In this document: positions 1 to 4,248 of the stretch, one piece after another
Layout of the letters: every line of letters begins with the position of its first letter
Numbering within the stretch: position 1 is the first letter of the stretch
Source of the DNA: a virus
Lineage: Duplodnaviria > Heunggongvirae > Uroviricota > Caudoviricetes
Reading direction: 5' to 3' (one strand)
IMG/VR virus record: IMGVR_UViG_3300014970_000027
Length of the DNA stretch: 4,248 nt
The notes under the pieces: model-generated
The model's input: only the letters and a program-made list of their open reading frames with translations
Databases searched by the model: none
Told to the model about the DNA's origin: nothing
Program-made: the position numbers and the translations under genes

Positions 1-164
1 ACGCAAAAGTTTATGTTGAAGGCGCATGGAATCGGGTTACGAATAAAAAAGGTAATACTTCACTTTATGATCACAATAATAACACTTCAGACTACAGCAA
101 AAATGGAGCAGGTATAGAAAACTATAACTTCATCACTACTGCTGGTCTTAAGTACACATTTTAA
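1..164 (+). CDS. ompT: Outer-membrane protease OmpT (omptin), 3' end only; 5' part lies outside the window
   Basis: The + frame that begins at position 3 is open from the window edge to a TAA stop at 162..164. It translates to AKVYVEGAWNRVTNKKGNTSLYDHNNNTSDYSKNGAGIENYNFITTAGLKYTF*, which I recognise as the C-terminus of E. coli OmpT. It is convergent with appY, as I recall for the E. coli K-12 locus. Confidence 0.85.
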   Translation, partial: AKVYVEGAWNRVTNKKGNTSLYDHNNNTSDYSKNGAGIENYNFITTAGLKYTF

Positions 165-538: not shown

Positions 539-1288
539 TCAGTCAATTGTTTTGTTTATTCCATCTGTGACGCCGATTATTTTCTCAAAATAATGAGATG
601 GCGTGACACCATAATAATTTTTAAATGCACATATGAAATATGAAGTACTGTTATAGCCACATTTCTGGGCTACGACATTGATAGAATAAGAATTTGAAGT
701 TATGAGTTTTTTTGCATACCTCATCCTAGTATCTCTCAATATTTCAGTAAATGACGTTCCTTCATCCCTTAATCTTTTTTTTATTAAACTTTCACTCGTA
801 TAAATCAATTCCGCAATATCTTTTAAATGCCATTGCCGCTCAATATTAAAACTGATTATTCCAGTAATTTTACAGGTGAATGTATTTATATTTGTTAGTA
901 TAAAAGAATTTACACTTTCGCGTTTTTTGAACATGGCAAGTAAGGATATACATAGTCTTTCTTTTAACCAAAGGGAGTGTGAGTCTGCTATTTTAATCCC
1001 TTCAAACAGAGAAAAAACAAGCGATAATGGAGGTTCCTCTTCAGCAATATAGCCATTCTTATCAAGAGTAAATTTGCCAGGCAGCTCATTATTCACGTCG
1101 ATAAAAAAGGATAAACATGTTTTCTTATCTATATCAACAATTCTTAGTTTAGAGGGGCATACTGGTAACTCCCTTCTAATTTTGTCGCTTACAATAAACA
1201 ATGAATTTTTTTTGAACGAGATAACTCTCCTGTTTATAATTAAATCAAATGATTGACAGATGAAAACTACGGAGCAAACATAATCCAT
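539..1288 (-). CDS. appY: AraC-family transcriptional activator AppY (249 aa)
   Basis: Complete ORF from ATG at 1288..1286 to its stop, preceded by an AGGTGCAGG Shine-Dalgarno-like sequence. The translation begins [27 protein letters not shown], which I recognise as E. coli AppY. The C-terminal ~100 aa has the typical AraC/XylS double helix-turn-helix region (...[40 protein letters not shown]...[23 protein letters not shown]). The gene is AT-rich (about 32% GC in a hand-counted 60-nt sample at 601..660). Confidence 0.9.
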
Positions 1289-1860
1289 CCTGCACCTATC
1301 ATAAAATTAAAACAAGTTGATAGCAGTCAAATAACAACCAATTAAATACACAATCATAATCAGGATGATGTGCATTTATATTTTTATACACAAAATTATA
1401 GTTTGCAAATTTTAATAAATTTCATTTAAGATTAAATTATTATATGTATATTCTTTTTTATTCTAACGTATTTCAAAGTTACATTTTTCAACGCTTACTA
1501 TACTTTTTATTAACATAAACTCACTACAACGCACCTGAAACCTCTTGCTATATATATGTCAACCGTTTGAATTTAAAATAAAAAGAGTATCATTTTTACT
1601 TGCATTTCTTATCAAGTCACATTCAACAACAGTAAAAAAACATTATTAGAACCATTCAATTAACAAAAAACCAACATCCAGCTTGCTTAATTTTTCTTTA
1701 TTAAACGATATTGAAAATCAATTGATAAAATACATCTAAACAACCTTTTGGGGCGCAAAAGCATAACATCAAACAAACAAATAACACACCGAAAAAACTC
1801 ACAATTAATAACCTATGATATACATACTGTTTATTATGGTTGAATAAGCCACTCGATATC
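1289..1860 (-). promoter_or_regulatory. Extremely AT-rich, ORF-free upstream/leader region of appY; presumed promoter and nucleoid-protein (H-NS-type) silencing region
   Basis: The six-frame track shows no ORF of 60 aa or more on either strand. A hand-counted 60-nt sample at 1381..1440 is about 12% GC. The region sits directly 5' of the appY start on the - strand. Exact -35/-10 elements were not assigned. Confidence 0.5.
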
Positions 1861-1913
1861 TGGTGCTACGGAAGTGTCCACACGGTTTAGCAGCACCCGA
1901 TACTTTTTCCAGG

Positions 1914-1923
1914 NNNNNNNNNN
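1914..1923. other. Run of 10 ambiguous bases (N); assembly gap or masked sequence
   Basis: Literal nnnnnnnnnn in the sequence, located in the intergenic region 50 nt downstream (on the - strand) of the 97-aa gene stop. Confidence 0.99.
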
Positions 1924-1972
1924 AAGAAAAATTTAGTTTTCTTCCTCCGTTGCATATACAGCTCACCTTTTT

Positions 1973-2266
1973 TCACCCACGATTAACCAACAGCCAGACC
2001 AGCAGACACGCCACCACCGGCACAGCAAAATCCATCAGGCTTGCCACATCCCATGCACGTGTATCAAAACCGCCCCACCACGGCATATTCATTCGCTTGC
2101 CATGCCCGAACATTTCGATCCAGCGATATTCTGCCTGGGTGTGTTCACGCGCAATGAAGAACGTACAACCGGCTATCGCCCCGTAAGCCCAGTTTCCGGT
2201 AAAAAGACCAACCAGTACCTGCGCAGCCACAGCACAAAGTGCATGAAGGAAAGGTGTTATATCCAT
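1973..2266 (-). CDS. Small predicted multi-pass membrane protein (97 aa), unknown function; last gene of the tail-fibre operon
   Basis: ATG at 2266..2264 is preceded by a strong Shine-Dalgarno sequence (AAGGAGG, complement of 2271..2276) with a 4-nt spacer, 10 nt after the stop of the upstream 234-aa gene. The translation has two long hydrophobic stretches (about residues 9-38, ALCAVAAQVLVGLFTGNWAYGAIAGCTFFIA, and about 75-93, LMDFAVPVVACLLVWLLV) separated by a charged, aromatic-rich loop (REHTQAEYRWIEMFGHGKRMNMPWWGGFDTRAWD). No lipobox was found. Confidence 0.6.
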   Translation of the reverse strand: MDITPFLHALCAVAAQVLVGLFTGNWAYGAIAGCTFFIAREHTQAEYRWIEMFGHGKRMNMPWWGGFDTRAWDVASLMDFAVPVVACLLVWLLVNRG

Positions 2267-2270
2267 TACG

Positions 2271-2276
2271 CCTCCT
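2271..2276 (-). promoter_or_regulatory. Shine-Dalgarno sequence (AGGAGG) for the 97-aa membrane protein gene
   Basis: The - strand reads TAA-AGGAGG-CGTA-ATG; this is a perfect consensus ribosome-binding site at optimal spacing. Confidence 0.65.
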
Positions 2277-2981
2277 TTATCCGATATCGCTTCGGGAAGT
2301 TAATAACAACTTTAATTCTGACTCAAGTTCATCAACTCTTTCAGTCAGTTTCTGGATATGGTGAATCAGTGGAACAACCAGACGTTCGTACATTACACCT
2401 TCGGCAACAAGGCCATTGCTGGAAATAGCTTCAGGAGCATCATCTTCGTTAGCTGGTCGCCAGTGTACAAACTGAGGGGCAATTTCTCCTACTTCCTCGG
2501 CAATCAATCCGTAGAACCCCCAGTCACGCCTGTCATTTTCGCATTGCGACCTGTACCACACAGGGCGCATCCTGAAAATGACATCGGCGTGCTCTGAATC
2601 TATCGTCTCTACTGAATGTTTATAGCGAATAGACGATGTTGACCGCAGTACAGACGAAATTGCAGGGTCAGGATTAAGATAAAGGTTTGCCGCCGCTGTA
2701 GTCGTGCCCAATCCCCACAAATAAAACGCTTCACGGCCAGTCAACGGGTAAAAATCTCCACCATAACGACCGCTTTCCAGATCGTTCACTTCCAGTTTGT
2801 TTTTCAGCTTATTATCAACTTCAGTTTTTGTGTATCTGGTACTGATATCCTGCTTTGCACTGGTCATATCAGTCTGAAGCGTTGATACTTTTCCGTTAAT
2901 TGAGGAAATATCTTCCTTAGTTTTACTGACATCTCCCTTTAGCGTGGTGATATCTCCTGGAATTACTGTCGATGTAGCCAT
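2277..2981 (-). CDS. 234-aa protein: N-terminal coiled-coil region plus C-terminal intramolecular-chaperone-like domain (peptidase S74 / 'chaperone of endosialidase' type); probable short fibre or fibre-tip protein
   Basis: ATG at 2981..2979 with a GAGGGAG Shine-Dalgarno sequence immediately upstream, overlapping the stop of the 93-aa gene. Residues ~10-70 are heptad-like and rich in K/E/D/S/T (DITTLKGDVSKTKEDISSINGKVSTLQTDMTSAKQDISTRYTKTEVDNKLKNKLEVNDLES). Residues 116-234 carry the motifs I associate with the self-cleaving C-terminal chaperone domain of phage tail fibres/tailspikes: S-x-x-R-x-K (S116-S-I-R119-Y-K121, nt 2619..2636), then PVWY, GFYGLIAEEVGEIAPQFV, and YERLVVPLIHHIQKLTERVDELESELKLL. 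Confidence 0.7.
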   Translation of the reverse strand: MATSTVIPGDITTLKGDVSKTKEDISSINGKVSTLQTDMTSAKQDISTRYTKTEVDNKLKNKLEVNDLESGRYGGDFYPLTGREAFYLWGLGTTTAAANLYLNPDPAISSVLRSTSSIRYKHSVETIDSEHADVIFRMRPVWYRSQCENDRRDWGFYGLIAEEVGEIAPQFVHWRPANEDDAPEAISSNGLVAEGVMYERLVVPLIHHIQKLTERVDELESELKLLLTSRSDIG

Positions 2982-2985
2982 TTGT

Positions 2986-2992
2986 CTCCCTC
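2986..2992 (-). promoter_or_regulatory. Shine-Dalgarno sequence for the 234-aa gene, overlapping the stop codon of the 93-aa gene
   Basis: The - strand reads TGAGGGAGACAA-ATG, a 9-nt intergenic spacer. Confidence 0.55.
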
Positions 2993-3272
2993 ACATCCAG
3001 CCACGAAGTTGATGCTCAACAACAACCGCGTATTTATCGAATATTGACGATTTTTTTGCATCATTAATGATGCGCACGTTTACAAAATATCCGTCTTCCT
3101 TAACACATACCGGTTCGCCATCTTCAGTCAGTTCTCCGGTTTCTTTGTACACGTTACCTATCACGTCAATAAGAATATCATCCTGCATCGACTCGTCATC
3201 ATAATAGCCAATACTCTCCATAAAGGCCGAAAAGTCGGCCCTGTCTGCAAATTTGAGTGTTAAATCTTTCAT
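2991..3272 (-). CDS. Small acidic hypothetical protein (93 aa), translationally coupled between the tail-fibre gene and the 234-aa gene
   Basis: Its ATG (3272..3270) overlaps the TGA stop of the tail-fibre gene (3271..3269) in an ATGA arrangement. A GGGGGAG Shine-Dalgarno sequence lies 8 nt upstream (complement of 3281..3287). The translation MKDLTLKFADRADFSAFMESIGYYDDESMQDDILIDVIGNVYKETGELTEDGEPVCVKEDGYFVNVRIINDAKKSSIFDKYAVVVEHQLRGWM is strongly acidic and has no hydrophobic segment. I recognise no family. Confidence 0.6.
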   Translation of the reverse strand: MKDLTLKFADRADFSAFMESIGYYDDESMQDDILIDVIGNVYKETGELTEDGEPVCVKEDGYFVNVRIINDAKKSSIFDKYAVVVEHQLRGWM

Positions 3273-4248
3273 TTAATACTCTCCCCCATTTGCGCATCAG
3301 TTAATTCTTTATGCCAGATACGCAGATTACGGATATGACCAAAAAGATGATACTCCCCATTAGTGCCCTGCCCTCCAATTCGCAATACTGCCCGTGGAAC
3401 AATTGAAGTCCATGTTGTTTTTGCCGCAACAGATAATTCACCATTACATACGGCCTGAACATCTCCATCAGCGCCACAACGGAAGCCTGAAATGATTTTC
3501 CTCTGGGTTGTTGCCACATATTTATTACACCCTCCCATAGAAATAAAAGGAGAACCGGCATCAGAGAAATTATTACCACGGAATCCATGCGTGAACAGAC
3601 CATTTTCCTGATAATCTTTAACATTAAAGATTAATGGTGATTTGCTGGGAGGGATATCCCAGTTTTTATTAACTTCAACAAGAGCACTGAATGGTAATCG
3701 GTGAATATTGTTTCTTACAGGTATTGTCACCATGTCGCTGGAGCGAGTGCCAGGAGCCCCTTCAGTAATGATAAATGACGTCCTGTACGACCCAATCTCC
3801 GCCTGAGGCATCGCAATATCTAACGTAGAGCCATTGGGGATAATACTGATTCCAGGCATCGCCAGGATTTCAAATCTTGAGCTGATTATCATTTCCGCAT
3901 CTGCAAAAAGAGTGGCGGTAAACAACCACCATTCACCGACTCTTTCTGCCGTCACCGTCACATTATTTCCATGAACAACATTTCCCGTAACAGGATCCAG
4001 AGCTGCATCTGAATGAAAAACAAACGCACCATTATCAGACATTTTTCCGAACCTTGCACGACACCGGGAATTATCACTTTTCGTCAGACACGATATCGTC
4101 GTATAAGAACCTGCCGGGCAGGTGTAAGCATCATTCGTGTTTACAGCAATTGCCTGATATCCTTGTGCTGTCGGATTTTCATTAATAACAGTTATCCTTC
4201 CATAGTTAAACCCCTTATCACTGTCGAACGACTCAACAGACACACTAA
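3269..4248 (-). CDS. Phage tail-fibre / host-specificity protein, C-terminal region with lectin-like (LamG/concanavalin-A-like) distal domain; 5' end probably outside the window
   Basis: The reading frame is open to the window edge; the first in-window candidate start is a GTG at 4243..4241, so the gene is probably longer. Stop is TGA at 3271..3269. The C-terminal sequence ...RIGGQGTNGEYHLFGHIRNLRIWHKELTDAQM resembles the terminal signature of LamG_3-type jelly-roll domains (F-x-G-x-I-D-E-V-R-I-Y-N-R-A-L-S-x-x-E-I). The translation is rich in G/S/T/N and beta-strand-like. About 52% GC in a hand-counted sample at 2401..2460 of the same module. Confidence 0.7.
   Translation of the reverse strand, partial: SVSVESFDSDKGFNYGRITVINENPTAQGYQAIAVNTNDAYTCPAGSYTTISCLTKSDNSRCRARFGKMSDNGAFVFHSDAALDPVTGNVVHGNNVTVTAERVGEWWLFTATLFADAEMIISSRFEILAMPGISIIPNGSTLDIAMPQAEIGSYRTSFIITEGAPGTRSSDMVTIPVRNNIHRLPFSALVEVNKNWDIPPSKSPLIFNVKDYQENGLFTHGFRGNNFSDAGSPFISMGGCNKYVATTQRKIISGFRCGADGDVQAVCNGELSVAAKTTWTSIVPRAVLRIGGQGTNGEYHLFGHIRNLRIWHKELTDAQMGESIK

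What the first reader, a model, noticed from the sequence alone, without database searches (positions are those of the whole stretch)
2277..2981. Stand-alone coiled-coil protein carrying a tail-fibre-type self-cleaving chaperone domain
The intramolecular chaperone domain (peptidase S74 type) is classically the C-terminal extension of a large tail fibre or tailspike (K1F endosialidase, T5 L-shaped fibre pb1, phi29 gp12). It drives trimerisation and then removes itself via a Ser-Lys dyad. Here an apparently complete version (S116-x-x-R119-x-K121, then GFYGLIAEEV... and YERLVVPLIHHIQKL...) is encoded in a separate 234-aa ORF with its own ribosome-binding site. It is fused only to a ~70-residue heptad coiled coil and a short Gly/Thr-rich linker (GDFYPLTGREAFYLWGLGTTTAAANLYLNPDPAISSVLRSTS). 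If it self-cleaves before S116, the product would be a ~115-aa trimeric coiled-coil stub. That is far too small to be a conventional fibre, so it may be a minimal fibre, a fibre-tip adaptor, or a trans-acting scaffold for the LamG-tipped fibre upstream.
Basis: partly seen in the sequence, partly recalled or inferred. Interest (0 to 1): 0.72.

Follow-up and report, generated by a model that had tools for sequence, protein, structure and literature searches.

The report
Minimal self-cleaving side-tail-fibre end piece
This small prophage gene most likely encodes the shortest version of the outer segment of a multi-protein phage side tail fibre, which folds as a trimer with a built-in chaperone that then cuts itself off; it is common in E. 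coli and already annotated, so it is an untested variant of a known kind, not a new system.

Summary
The ORF is real: minus strand, 2277-2981, 234 aa, with a GAGGGAG ribosome-binding site. Its C-terminal half is a genuine intramolecular chaperone (Peptidase_S74) domain. Pfam scores it above the curated cutoff. S116 and K121 are invariant in 32 homologues. The only significant PDB fold matches are to the MyRF ICA (intramolecular chaperone auto-processing) domain.

It is not a frameshift remnant. The gene is intact in 740 of 5426 complete E. coli genomes, and dN/dS is 0.14-0.27.

It is the third gene of a conserved module: a proximal fibre with a LamG/galectin-like end, a ~93-aa protein, then an S74 protein. 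The module occurs in lambdoid, T1-like, Nonagvirus and T5-like phages. Third-position proteins share a ~25-residue N-terminus (M-x-T-x-T-x-IP-x-DI-x-x-LK), have variable bodies (221-574 aa in total) and end in a C-terminal chaperone domain. One is IrisVonRoten Gp24, a published distal fibre modelled as attached to its proximal fibre.

The window protein keeps the shared N-terminus, six heptads, the conserved pre-cleavage cap and the chaperone, but has no receptor-binding body.

Best reading: a minimal distal fibre subunit that matures to a ~12.5 kDa-per-chain trimer. A role as a trans-acting chaperone is less likely.

Cleavage, virion presence and docking are untested. Novelty is modest.

The parts
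2277..2981 (-). Complete ORF of 234 aa (26.2 kDa): the minimal third-position (distal) subunit of a side/lateral tail-fibre module.
   Evidence: One search lists the ORF. It is intact in 740 of 5426 E. coli genomes. dN/dS is 0.14-0.27. Homologues occur in intact phages.
2986..2992 (-). Shine-Dalgarno-like GAGGGAG. It overlaps the stop codon of the 93-aa gene, 9 nt separate that stop from the ATG, and translational coupling is likely.
   Evidence: Read directly from the sequence. Conserved in PhiR49_1, IdasGreatGrand and E. coli 042.
2907..2981 (-). Residues 1-25, the conserved N-terminal 'anchor' MATSTVIPGDITTLKGDVSKTKEDI. It is the candidate docking peptide for the proximal fibre.
   Evidence: The same motif opens third-position proteins of 221-574 aa in lambdoid, T1-like, Nonagvirus and T5-like phages. 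Its N-terminus also matches the N-termini of PHROG families 4563 and 19752. Docking itself is inferred.
2829..2954 (-). Residues 10-51: six heptads of a predicted trimeric coiled-coil shaft (~6 nm).
   Evidence: Heptad a/d pattern. AF2 helix 11-47. Family length differences of -7, +14 and +21 residues.
2637..2828 (-). Residues 52-115: a short helix plus the conserved pre-cleavage cap (YTKTEV...GTTTAAANLYLNPDPAISSVLRSTS). Presumed to be a triple-beta-helix-type trimer nucleus.
   Evidence: Homologous to the last ~65 mature residues of long fibres of several architectures. The typical match in 3623 representatives starts at query residue ~85. dN=0 for residues 71-115 between the window and PhiR49_1. 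The fold is not resolved in the monomer model (pLDDT below 50).
2619..2636 (-). Predicted autocleavage site and catalytic dyad: S116 (2634-2636) and K121 (2619-2621). Cleavage is expected between S115 and S116.
   Evidence: Both residues are invariant in 32 homologues. Pfam model position 1 aligns to S116. The i/i+5 dyad spacing matches MYRF S578/K583 and the endosialidases (PMC3742443). Cleavage was not tested.
2280..2636 (-). Residues 116-234: the intramolecular chaperone (Peptidase_S74 / ICA) domain ending in a C-terminal helix. The predicted released fragment is 13.8 kDa.
   Evidence: (DT57C LtfA, 8hqz_d, E=2e-7).
2991..3272 (-). 93-aa partner gene (PHROG family 1361). It always lies between the proximal fibre and the third-position protein. 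Its role is unknown; it is a candidate assembly factor or connector for the GTA-spike/LamG fibre end.
   Evidence: AF2 gives an alpha/beta sandwich (pLDDT 82). No informative fold match was found. In an rV5-like phage it accompanies the fibre end without any S74 gene.
3269..4248 (-). 3' part of the proximal Stf-type side-tail-fibre gene (GTA-spike-fibre-like plus LamG/galectin-like distal domains). The gene continues beyond the window.
   Evidence: PHROG family 1419 'tail protein', E=7e-86. Weak Laminin_G_3 match. NCBIfam GTA_spike_fiber on the PhiR49_1 orthologue. Homology to the PhiR49_1, KarlJaspers and IrisVonRoten fibres.
1973..2266 (-). 97-aa small membrane protein (PHROG family 1443) directly downstream. 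It follows the third gene in lambdoid versions of the module only.
   Evidence: Two strongly hydrophobic segments at residues ~1-27 and ~72-96. Function unknown.

Best explanation
The ORF encodes the minimal form of the distal (third-position) subunit of a three-gene side/lateral tail-fibre module.

Proposed mechanism:
1. The gene is probably co-transcribed and translationally coupled with the proximal fibre gene and the 93-aa gene.
2. [quoted passage not shown] This nucleates the conserved beta-structured cap (residues ~71-115) and lets the six-heptad coiled coil (residues 10-51) zip up.
3. Once the trimer is folded, S116 and K121 cut the chain between S115 and S116. A 13.8-kDa chaperone fragment is released.
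4. A 12.5-kDa-per-chain trimeric stub remains. Its conserved N-terminal ~25 residues dock it on the proximal Stf-type fibre, probably near the conserved ~90-residue block at the junction of shaft and globular end.
5. The stub therefore forms a short terminal segment or branch of the fibre. The variable GTA-spike/LamG domains of the proximal fibre carry the host specificity.

Shown here: domain identity, dyad conservation, purifying selection, module conservation and the shared N-terminal motif.
Inferred: trimerisation, cleavage, docking and presence in the virion.

In the defective DLP12-type prophage where this sequence sits in some strains, the partner fibre is truncated. There the gene is probably inactive cargo.
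For: Chaperone domain:
- Pfam match above the curated cutoff.
- Invariant S116 and K121 plus the PVWYRS and GLIAEE motifs.
- Confident AF2 domain whose only significant PDB matches are to an ICA domain.
- Sequence match to the C-terminus of DT57C LtfA.

Functional gene:
- Intact in 740 of 5426 E. coli genomes.
- dN/dS 0.14-0.27 and a conserved Shine-Dalgarno signal.
- About 60% identical orthologues in T1-like phages.

Conserved module:
- Between lambdoid and T1-like phages the fibre is 44% identical over 547 aa and the 93-aa protein 54%.
- The T5-like IrisVonRoten fibre is 46% identical over 767 aa.
- The same gene order occurs in 2G7b, JenP1, ESCO3, PhiR47_1, KarlJaspers, swan01 and E. coli 042.

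Anchor:
- The first 25 residues are 44-92% identical to the window's in the seven other third-position proteins compared, even where the bodies are unrelated.

Published model:
- IrisVonRoten Gp24 is modelled as attached to a proximal fibre whose galectin-like domain protrudes at the C-terminus (PMC11990801).

Cis substrate:
- Residues 50-115 are homologous to the last mature residues of long fibres with the same chaperone. The typical match among 3623 representatives starts at residue ~85.

Coiled coil kept in register:
- Length differences come in multiples of seven residues.

Where specificity lies:
- Window versus PhiR49_1: the fibre end is 37-44% identical, the 93-aa protein 91% and the S74 protein 96%.

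Operon structure:
- No promoter- or terminator-like sites on the coding strand inside the module.
Against: - No experiment on any member of the minimal class was found. One virion proteome of a carrier phage (swan01) detected only five abundant proteins and no fibre components, so it is uninformative.
- The trimer, the cap fold and the docking could not be modelled; only a monomer prediction was possible, with pLDDT below 50 for residues 62-111.
- The BASEL annotators call the T1-like orthologue a 'putative lateral tail fiber chaperone'.
- A stub with no receptor-binding body has no obvious adsorption role.
- The candidate docking block on the proximal fibre rests on a single comparator lacking a partner.
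- Several T1-like phages isolated on K-12 carry a frameshifted copy. The gene is therefore dispensable at least on rough hosts, unless these are sequencing errors.
Confidence: 0.6

Rival explanations
1. It is a non-structural assembly factor. The protein, or its released chaperone trimer, acts in trans as a trimerisation scaffold or chaperone for the LamG-tipped proximal fibre and is not retained in the virion. This is the sense of the BASEL annotation and the reader's third option.
For: - It is annotated 'putative lateral tail fiber chaperone' in KarlJaspers and PeterMerian.
- It always lies downstream of a fibre that has neither its own chaperone domain nor a Tfa-type gene.
- It lacks a receptor-binding body.
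- It is highly conserved while the fibre end varies, as expected for a generic helper.
Against: - The chaperone domain has its own conserved cis substrate (cap plus coiled coil), shared with thousands of fibres.
- Larger proteins with the same N-terminal motif and position are clearly fibres with bodies of ~200-460 residues. One is modelled as attached to the proximal fibre.
- The same fibre end plus the 93-aa gene exists in an rV5-like phage with no S74 gene beside it.
- The 93-aa protein is a better candidate for the dedicated helper.
- In MYRF a construct lacking the ICA domain fails to trimerise, so the domain acts on its own chain (PMC3742443).
Confidence: 0.15
2. It is an independent minimal receptor-binding fibre. 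The small cap exposed after the chaperone is released binds a conserved surface structure such as LPS core or an outer-membrane protein. This would make it one of the smallest phage receptor-binding proteins, whether docked on the proximal fibre or elsewhere on the tail tip.
For: - In long single-polypeptide fibres the same cap is the extreme distal end after cleavage.
- The cap is strongly conserved (dN=0 for residues 71-115), which would suit a conserved ligand.
Against: - Receptor-binding regions of lateral fibres are usually the most variable part. Here the variation lies in the proximal fibre end.
- Long fibres carrying the same cap also carry recognisable binding domains upstream of it, such as gp37_C.
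- There is no binding data.
Confidence: 0.15
3. It is a functionless leftover. Either it is the 3' end of an older Stf-type fibre gene displaced when the LamG-type end and the 93-aa gene were inserted, or it is a distal fibre that lost its binding body and is carried along neutrally.
For: - The C-terminal ~190 aa are 49-59% identical to the ends of long Stf-type and other fibres. One of these occupies the same J-lom-stf locus.
- Tail-fibre loci are mosaic.
- Frameshifted copies exist in some T1-like phages.
- The window itself lies in a decaying prophage region with a Tfa remnant and, in some strains, a truncated fibre.
Against: - dN/dS is 0.14-0.27.
- Reading frame, start codon, Shine-Dalgarno signal and the 9-nt gap after the 93-aa stop are conserved among the lambdoid copies; the T1-like and T5-like loci keep the start codon with similarly short gaps.
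- The dedicated N-terminal motif is absent from the long fused fibres but shared with other third-position proteins.
- Length changes preserve the heptad register.
- The gene is intact in 740 genomes.
Confidence: 0.08

Closest known systems
IrisVonRoten (Bas32, T5-like) Gp24 'T-shaped' distal lateral tail fibre with proximal fibre Gp22 (BASEL collection, PMC11990801)
   Same: - Same three-gene module: the proximal fibre is 46% identical over 767 aa to the lambdoid Stf, followed by a 92-aa gene and then a third gene 9 nt downstream.
- Same N-terminal motif, MVTKTVIPTDITKLK.
- Same C-terminal S74 chaperone.
- Modelled as attached to the proximal fibre.
   Different: Gp24 has 574 aa and two receptor-binding domains (Gp12-like and T5-like) between anchor and chaperone. 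The window protein has only six heptads and the terminal cap. Identity outside the anchor and chaperone is negligible.
345-351-aa third-position fibre proteins of lambdoid 2G7b (gp24) and Nonagvirus JenP1 (gp25) and ESCO3
   Same: Same position after the fibre and the ~93-aa gene, the same anchor motif, and a C-terminal S74 domain with a Ser-Lys dyad.
   Different: They carry a ~200-residue beta-rich body before the cleavage Ser (S227) and belong to a different chaperone subtype (SDRDLK). The window protein lacks the body.
Single-polypeptide Stf-type side tail fibres ending in the same S74 module (for example P0186 at 735 aa and P0187 at 958 aa)
   Same: The last ~190 aa (end of shaft, cap, chaperone) are 57-59% identical. 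P0187 occupies the same J-lom-stf locus.
   Different: They are one polypeptide with the prophage tail-fibre N-terminal domain. They have no LamG-type end, no 93-aa gene and no anchor motif. The window gene is a separate ORF with its own start.
Phage T5 pb1 and DT57C LtfA/LtfB L-shaped tail fibres
   Same: They have a C-terminal intramolecular chaperone (8hqz_d match, E=2e-7). In DT57C the fibre is built from two proteins, with LtfB attached through LtfA (PMC10713586).
   Different: These are proteins of ~1000-1400 aa with large binding tips, and their attachment domains differ. No 115-aa mature product is known in that system.
K1F endosialidase C-terminal chaperone and the MYRF ICA domain
   Same: Same fold, the same Ser-Lys dyad at i/i+5 spacing, and a conserved ~40-residue segment before the Ser.
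   Different: The cargo differs: an endosialidase tailspike or a eukaryotic transcription factor, against a short coiled coil here. As in MYRF, the role here may be mainly trimerisation rather than folding of a large beta-helix.

Membership tests
[quoted passage not shown] | Significant profile match to the family model | tested here: met
   PF13884 matches residues 116-172 to model positions 1-57 of 58, at 27.2 bits against a cutoff of 22. All 32 aligned homologues share the motifs.
[quoted passage not shown] | Catalytic Ser and Lys five residues apart at the start of the domain | tested here: met
   S116 and K121 are invariant in 32 sequences. The spacing matches MYRF S578/K583.
[quoted passage not shown] | ICA fold ending in a C-terminal helix that forms a trimeric coiled coil | tested here: met
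   AF2 gives pLDDT 80-94 for residues 122-230 and a helix at 198-233. Foldseek top hits are 7dc3 (significant), then 3gw6 and 3gud (not significant). The model is a monomer only.
[quoted passage not shown] | Located at the C-terminal end and preceded by a conserved beta-helix-type segment that it templates | tested here: inconclusive
   The C-terminal position is met. Residues ~85-115 are homologous to the pre-cleavage segment in 3623 representatives. Their fold is unresolved in the monomer model (pLDDT below 50).
[quoted passage not shown] | Trimerisation-dependent autoproteolysis | not testable with these tools
   Needs expression followed by SDS-PAGE or mass spectrometry. Predicted fragments are 12.47 and 13.76 kDa.
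Third-position (distal) subunit of the Stf/LTF - 93-aa - S74 fibre module (IrisVonRoten Gp24 type) | Encoded directly after a GTA-spike/LamG-ended proximal fibre gene and a ~93-aa gene | tested here: met
   Window gene order. The same order occurs in nine other loci from four phage groups.
Third-position (distal) subunit of the Stf/LTF - 93-aa - S74 fibre module (IrisVonRoten Gp24 type) | Conserved N-terminal motif M-[AV]-T-x-T-x-IP-x-DI-x-x-LK | tested here: met
   Present in all third-position proteins compared.
Third-position (distal) subunit of the Stf/LTF - 93-aa - S74 fibre module (IrisVonRoten Gp24 type) | Receptor-binding body between anchor and chaperone | tested here: not met
   Only six heptads and the ~65-residue cap lie between anchor and Ser. 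The protein is therefore filed as a body-less variant, not as a typical member.
Third-position (distal) subunit of the Stf/LTF - 93-aa - S74 fibre module (IrisVonRoten Gp24 type) | Physical attachment to the proximal fibre in the virion | not testable with these tools
The published model covers Gp24 only. The swan01 proteome is uninformative.
Tfa-type tail fibre assembly chaperones (lambda Tfa / Mu gpU) | Profile match to Tfa-type families | tested here: not met
   No such Pfam, PHROG or NCBIfam hit. A separate Tfa pseudogene remnant lies further downstream.
P22/Sf6 gp26-type tail needle | Homology beyond heptad repeats | tested here: not met
   Only a weak heptad-level match to 4lin (E=0.005, residues 7-58) and to PHROG family 1219 (E=0.0055).

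The most novel reading that the evidence does not exclude
The body-less distal subunit is neither a degenerate fibre nor a mere spacer. Instead it is a dedicated cap or 'terminator' whose docking, gated by trimerisation-dependent self-cleavage, is needed to complete or activate the LamG-tipped proximal fibre. Alternatively, its 45-residue cap is itself a receptor-binding tip for a conserved ligand. Either way it would be the smallest natural substrate of an intramolecular chaperone with a defined virion function.
Probability: 0.2. Interest if true: 0.55.

Novelty: new variant of a known kind. Interest (0 to 1): 0.33.

Why it matters
- **Annotation.** The gene family is present in about one in seven complete E. 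coli genomes and in many T1-like phages, but is labelled inconsistently as 'hypothetical', 'chaperone of endosialidase' or 'tail fiber chaperone'. Placing it as the third, anchor-bearing subunit of a widespread three-gene fibre module would improve prophage and phage annotation. It also gives a rule for finding interchangeable distal fibre subunits by their N-terminal motif.
- **Protein engineering.** At 234 aa it is a compact natural example of chaperone-driven trimerisation and self-cleavage. It could serve as a model or as a self-removing trimerisation tag.
- **Fibre biology.** It raises a specific question: what is the use of a distal subunit with no binding body?
- **Limit.** None of this changes current understanding of phage fibres, so the importance is modest.

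Tried and rejected
- **Frameshifted remnant of the upstream fibre.** Rejected. The gene has a constant 705-bp length in 740 genomes, low dN/dS and a conserved start and Shine-Dalgarno signal.
- **Virion proteomics for a carrier phage** (swan01, PMC6563131 supplement). Only five abundant proteins were detected, so it is uninformative.
- **SH6 T1-like proteome paper.** It concerns a different, large S74 fibre.
- **CBASS-escape preprint.** Its mutation is in the large lateral fibre, not in this gene.
- **Literature on trans-activity of the endosialidase chaperone.** No usable statement was found in the held library. The cis argument rests instead on the MYRF paper and on the conserved cis substrate.
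- **NCBIfam.** No hit for the S74 protein, the 93-aa protein or the 97-aa protein.
- **Tail-needle (gp26) relationship.** The similarity is at heptad level only.
- **Regulatory signals and RNAs.** Rfam found nothing, and the promoter and terminator scans found nothing on the coding strand within 1700-3400.
- **Trimer or heteromer modelling.** Not possible with the tools; only a monomer could be predicted, and it left residues 62-111 unresolved.
Full report
**1. What is in the window**

The window is an E. coli chromosomal segment at the ompT/appY end of a DLP12-type lambdoid prophage. It matches many E. coli chromosomes at 99.6% identity over its full length.

All prophage genes lie on the minus strand, in this order:
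- the 3' part of an Stf-type side-tail-fibre gene (3269 to the window end);
- a 93-aa ORF (2991-3272);
- the ORF in question (2277-2981, 234 aa);
- a 97-aa membrane-protein ORF (1973-2266);
- a tail-fibre-assembly pseudogene remnant next to a run of N (1914-1923);
- an AT-rich spacer;
- appY (539-1288).

The 3' end of ompT (1-164) is on the plus strand.

In the best-matching strain the fibre gene is truncated and fused to a portal remnant. In other strains with equally good matches it is annotated as a fibre with the prophage tail-fibre N-terminal domain.

**2.

The ORF starts with ATG. A GAGGGAG Shine-Dalgarno-like sequence (2986-2992) overlaps the stop codon of the 93-aa gene, and 9 nt separate that stop from the ATG.

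Evidence for the chaperone domain:
- Pfam Peptidase_S74 matches residues 116-172 above the curated cutoff.
- In an alignment of 32 homologues, S116 and K121 are invariant, as are the PVWYRS and GLIAEE motifs.
- The AF2 model is confident for residues 122-230.
- Its only significant matches among solved structures are to the MyRF ICA domain. The K1F endosialidase and GA-1 chaperone domains rank next but are not significant.
- By sequence, the closest solved chain is the C-terminus of DT57C LtfA.

Residues 10-51 form six clean heptads with beta-branched or hydrophobic a/d positions. Residues 11-47 are predicted helical.

The ORF is on the minus strand, which the finding did not state.

**3. It is a maintained gene, not debris**

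- The 705-bp gene is full length in 740 of 5426 complete E. coli genomes, at 90-100% nucleotide identity. It is always annotated as a separate 'tail fiber domain-containing protein'.
- Pairwise dN/dS against copies from intact phages is 0.14-0.27. There are no non-synonymous changes in residues 71-115 between the window and PhiR49_1.
- Orthologues at ~60% identity occur as separate genes in about 40 T1-like Drexlerviridae.
- Length variants differ by 7, 14 or 21 residues within the coiled coil, which preserves the heptad register.

**4. Context: a conserved three-gene module**

In the intact temperate phages PhiR49_1 and IdasGreatGrand, and in the E. coli 042 prophage, the order is J, lom, Stf-type fibre (731-812 aa), 93 aa, 234 aa, 95-97 aa. 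In T1-like phages it is lateral tail fibre (651-659 aa), 92 aa, 221-225 aa.

All three proteins are homologous between these groups:
- the fibre at 44% over 547 aa;
- the small protein at 54%;
- the S74 protein at ~60%.

The 93-aa family is also found in Dhillonvirus, Nonagvirus, T5-like and rV5-like phages.

**5. The key comparison: the N-terminus**

The first ~25-32 residues match the N-termini of differently sized proteins. Every one of these proteins occupies the same third position:

| Phage (group) | Third-position protein |
|---|---|
| 2G7b (lambdoid) | gp24, 345 aa |
| JenP1 (Nonagvirus) | gp25, 351 aa |
| ESCO3 (Nonagvirus) | 351 aa |
| PhiR47_1 (lambdoid) | 294 aa, truncated in the chaperone |
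| IrisVonRoten (T5-like) | Gp24, 574 aa |

- All carry Peptidase_S74 at the C-terminus.
- The shared motif is M-[AV]-T-x-T-x-IP-x-DI-x-x-LK.
- After the motif the proteins diverge completely.

IrisVonRoten Gp24 is the published 'T-shaped' distal fibre. AlphaFold-Multimer models place it on a proximal fibre whose galectin-like domain protrudes at the C-terminus (PMC11990801). That proximal fibre is 46% identical over 767 aa to the lambdoid Stf of this module.

The window ORF therefore sits in the distal-subunit slot of a known multi-protein fibre. It has the slot's N-terminal motif and C-terminal chaperone but no receptor-binding body.

**6. What the 'linker' is**

An exhaustive search found 3623 representative proteins. 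The typical match covers query residues ~85-225 at the extreme C-terminus of proteins of 200-1300 aa.

Closer relatives (49-59% identity from residue ~24-49 onward) are long fibres of several architectures:
- Stf-type, with the prophage tail-fibre N-terminal domain;
- gp34/gp37-like;
- tail-collar type.

Aligning them shows that residues 50-115 of the window protein correspond to the last ~65 mature residues of those fibres. This is a terminal cap that travels with this chaperone subtype.

One such single-polypeptide Stf (958 aa) occupies the same J-lom-stf locus with no 93-aa gene after it. Split and fused architectures are therefore alternatives at one locus.

**7. Where host specificity probably lies**

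- Among lambdoid copies, the distal 320 aa of the proximal fibre are only 37-56% identical. The 93-aa protein stays at 80-98% and the minimal S74 protein at 93-96%.
- The fibre ends are mosaic across phage families. For example, swan01 and IrisVonRoten are 72% identical there.
- This points to the GTA-spike-like and LamG domains of the proximal fibre as the specificity determinants, and to a structural role for the minimal distal subunit.

**8. Testing the trans-chaperone rival**

- In the rV5-like phage CarlMeissner, a 1479-aa fibre ends in the same GTA-spike/LamG module (36% identity over 447 aa) and is followed by a homologue of the 93-aa gene.
- The next gene there has neither the anchor motif nor S74.
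- The 93-aa protein is thus tied to the fibre end, and that end does not strictly need an adjacent S74 protein.
- Together with the conserved cis substrate of the chaperone, this makes a purely trans-acting role less likely. It does not exclude it.

**9. A lead on docking**

All nine proximal fibres that have an anchor-bearing partner share a highly conserved ~90-residue block: QPLPDVWIPFNDSLDMITGFSPSYKKI...ITMPGDKVV...ATYINKSGV...EPRFE..GLLIEGQRTN. It lies at the junction of shaft and globular end.

The rV5-like fibre without such a partner lacks two segments of this block, DMITGFSPSYK and ITMPGDKVV. With a single comparator this is only a hypothesis for the docking site.

**10. Verdict**

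- The rarity of the arrangement was overstated. The gene is widespread and annotated, and 23 of the 142 closest representatives are shorter than 300 aa.
- The most likely mechanism (confidence about 0.6) is chaperone-driven trimerisation, self-cleavage before S116, and docking of the 12.5-kDa-per-chain stub on the proximal fibre through its N-terminal motif.
- Cleavage, virion presence and docking remain untested. No experimental paper on this minimal class was found in the held library.
- It is a new variant of a known kind, of modest interest.

Noticed in passing
window 2991-3272 (-); also L004, L007, L008, L010, L012, L013: A ~93-aa protein family of unknown function (PHROG family 1361) always follows fibres that end in the GTA-spike/LamG module. 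It occurs in lambdoid, T1-like, Dhillonvirus, Nonagvirus, T5-like and rV5-like phages, and in 985 of 5426 E. coli genomes. The AF2 model is an alpha/beta sandwich (pLDDT 82) with no informative structural neighbour. It may be the dedicated assembly factor or connector of that fibre end.
   Followed up: partly
L002 residues ~370-456 of the Stf; alignment: All proximal fibres with an anchor-bearing partner share a ~90-residue, near-invariant block (QPLPDVWIPFNDSLDMITGFSPSYKKI...GLLIEGQRTN) between the helical shaft and the globular end. The rV5-like fibre without such a partner lacks two short segments of it. It is a candidate docking site, based on one comparator only.
   Followed up: partly
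window 1973-2266 (-): A 97-aa ORF (PHROG family 1443, unknown function) has strongly hydrophobic segments at both ends. It follows the third fibre gene in lambdoid versions of the module but not in T1-like ones. It may be a membrane 'moron' such as a superinfection-exclusion or conversion protein.
   Followed up: no
window 1914-1923 and ~1834-1944 (-): A run of ten N interrupts the sequence inside what RefSeq annotates, in the matching strain, as a tail-fibre-assembly (Tfa) pseudogene remnant lacking its N-terminus. This marks the decayed end of the prophage.
   Followed up: no
window 1-164 (+), 539-1288 (-), 1289-1800: The 3' end of ompT and the appY regulator gene flank the prophage end. The appY gene and the spacer up to ~1800 are very AT-rich (23-31% GC), against 41-53% GC in the fibre module.
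   Followed up: no
L005 (phage orkinos) 4001-4739: The T1-like orthologue is split into two overlapping ORFs by one extra C in a C5 run. It also carries a 63-nt (three-heptad) tandem duplication in the coiled coil. Four other K-12-isolated T1-like phages also give two-piece matches. These are either homopolymer sequencing errors or real inactivation on hosts lacking O-antigen.
   Followed up: partly
L009 (PhiR47_1) 4501-5385: The third-position protein of this induced ECOR prophage stops inside the chaperone domain (294 aa against 345-351 aa in relatives). It may be unable to fold or cleave.
   Followed up: no
L004 (KarlJaspers) 6989-7666: The annotated start (GTG, giving VGLIMATVT...) lies four codons upstream of the conserved ATG that begins the anchor motif in all other family members. 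The start is probably mis-called.
   Followed up: no
L001 19504-20136 / 18260-19507: In strain 2017.11.01CC a deletion joins a portal-gene fragment directly to the C-terminal part of the fibre gene. This removes the head and tail genes but leaves the 93-aa, S74 and 97-aa genes intact.
   Followed up: no
PMC11990801, Fig. 12 legend versus main text: The BASEL 2025 paper calls the IrisVonRoten proximal fibre Gp22 in one place and Gp23 in another. In the genome, bas32_0022 is the 796-aa fibre and bas32_0023 is the 92-aa homologue of the window's 93-aa protein, which the paper does not discuss.
   Followed up: partly
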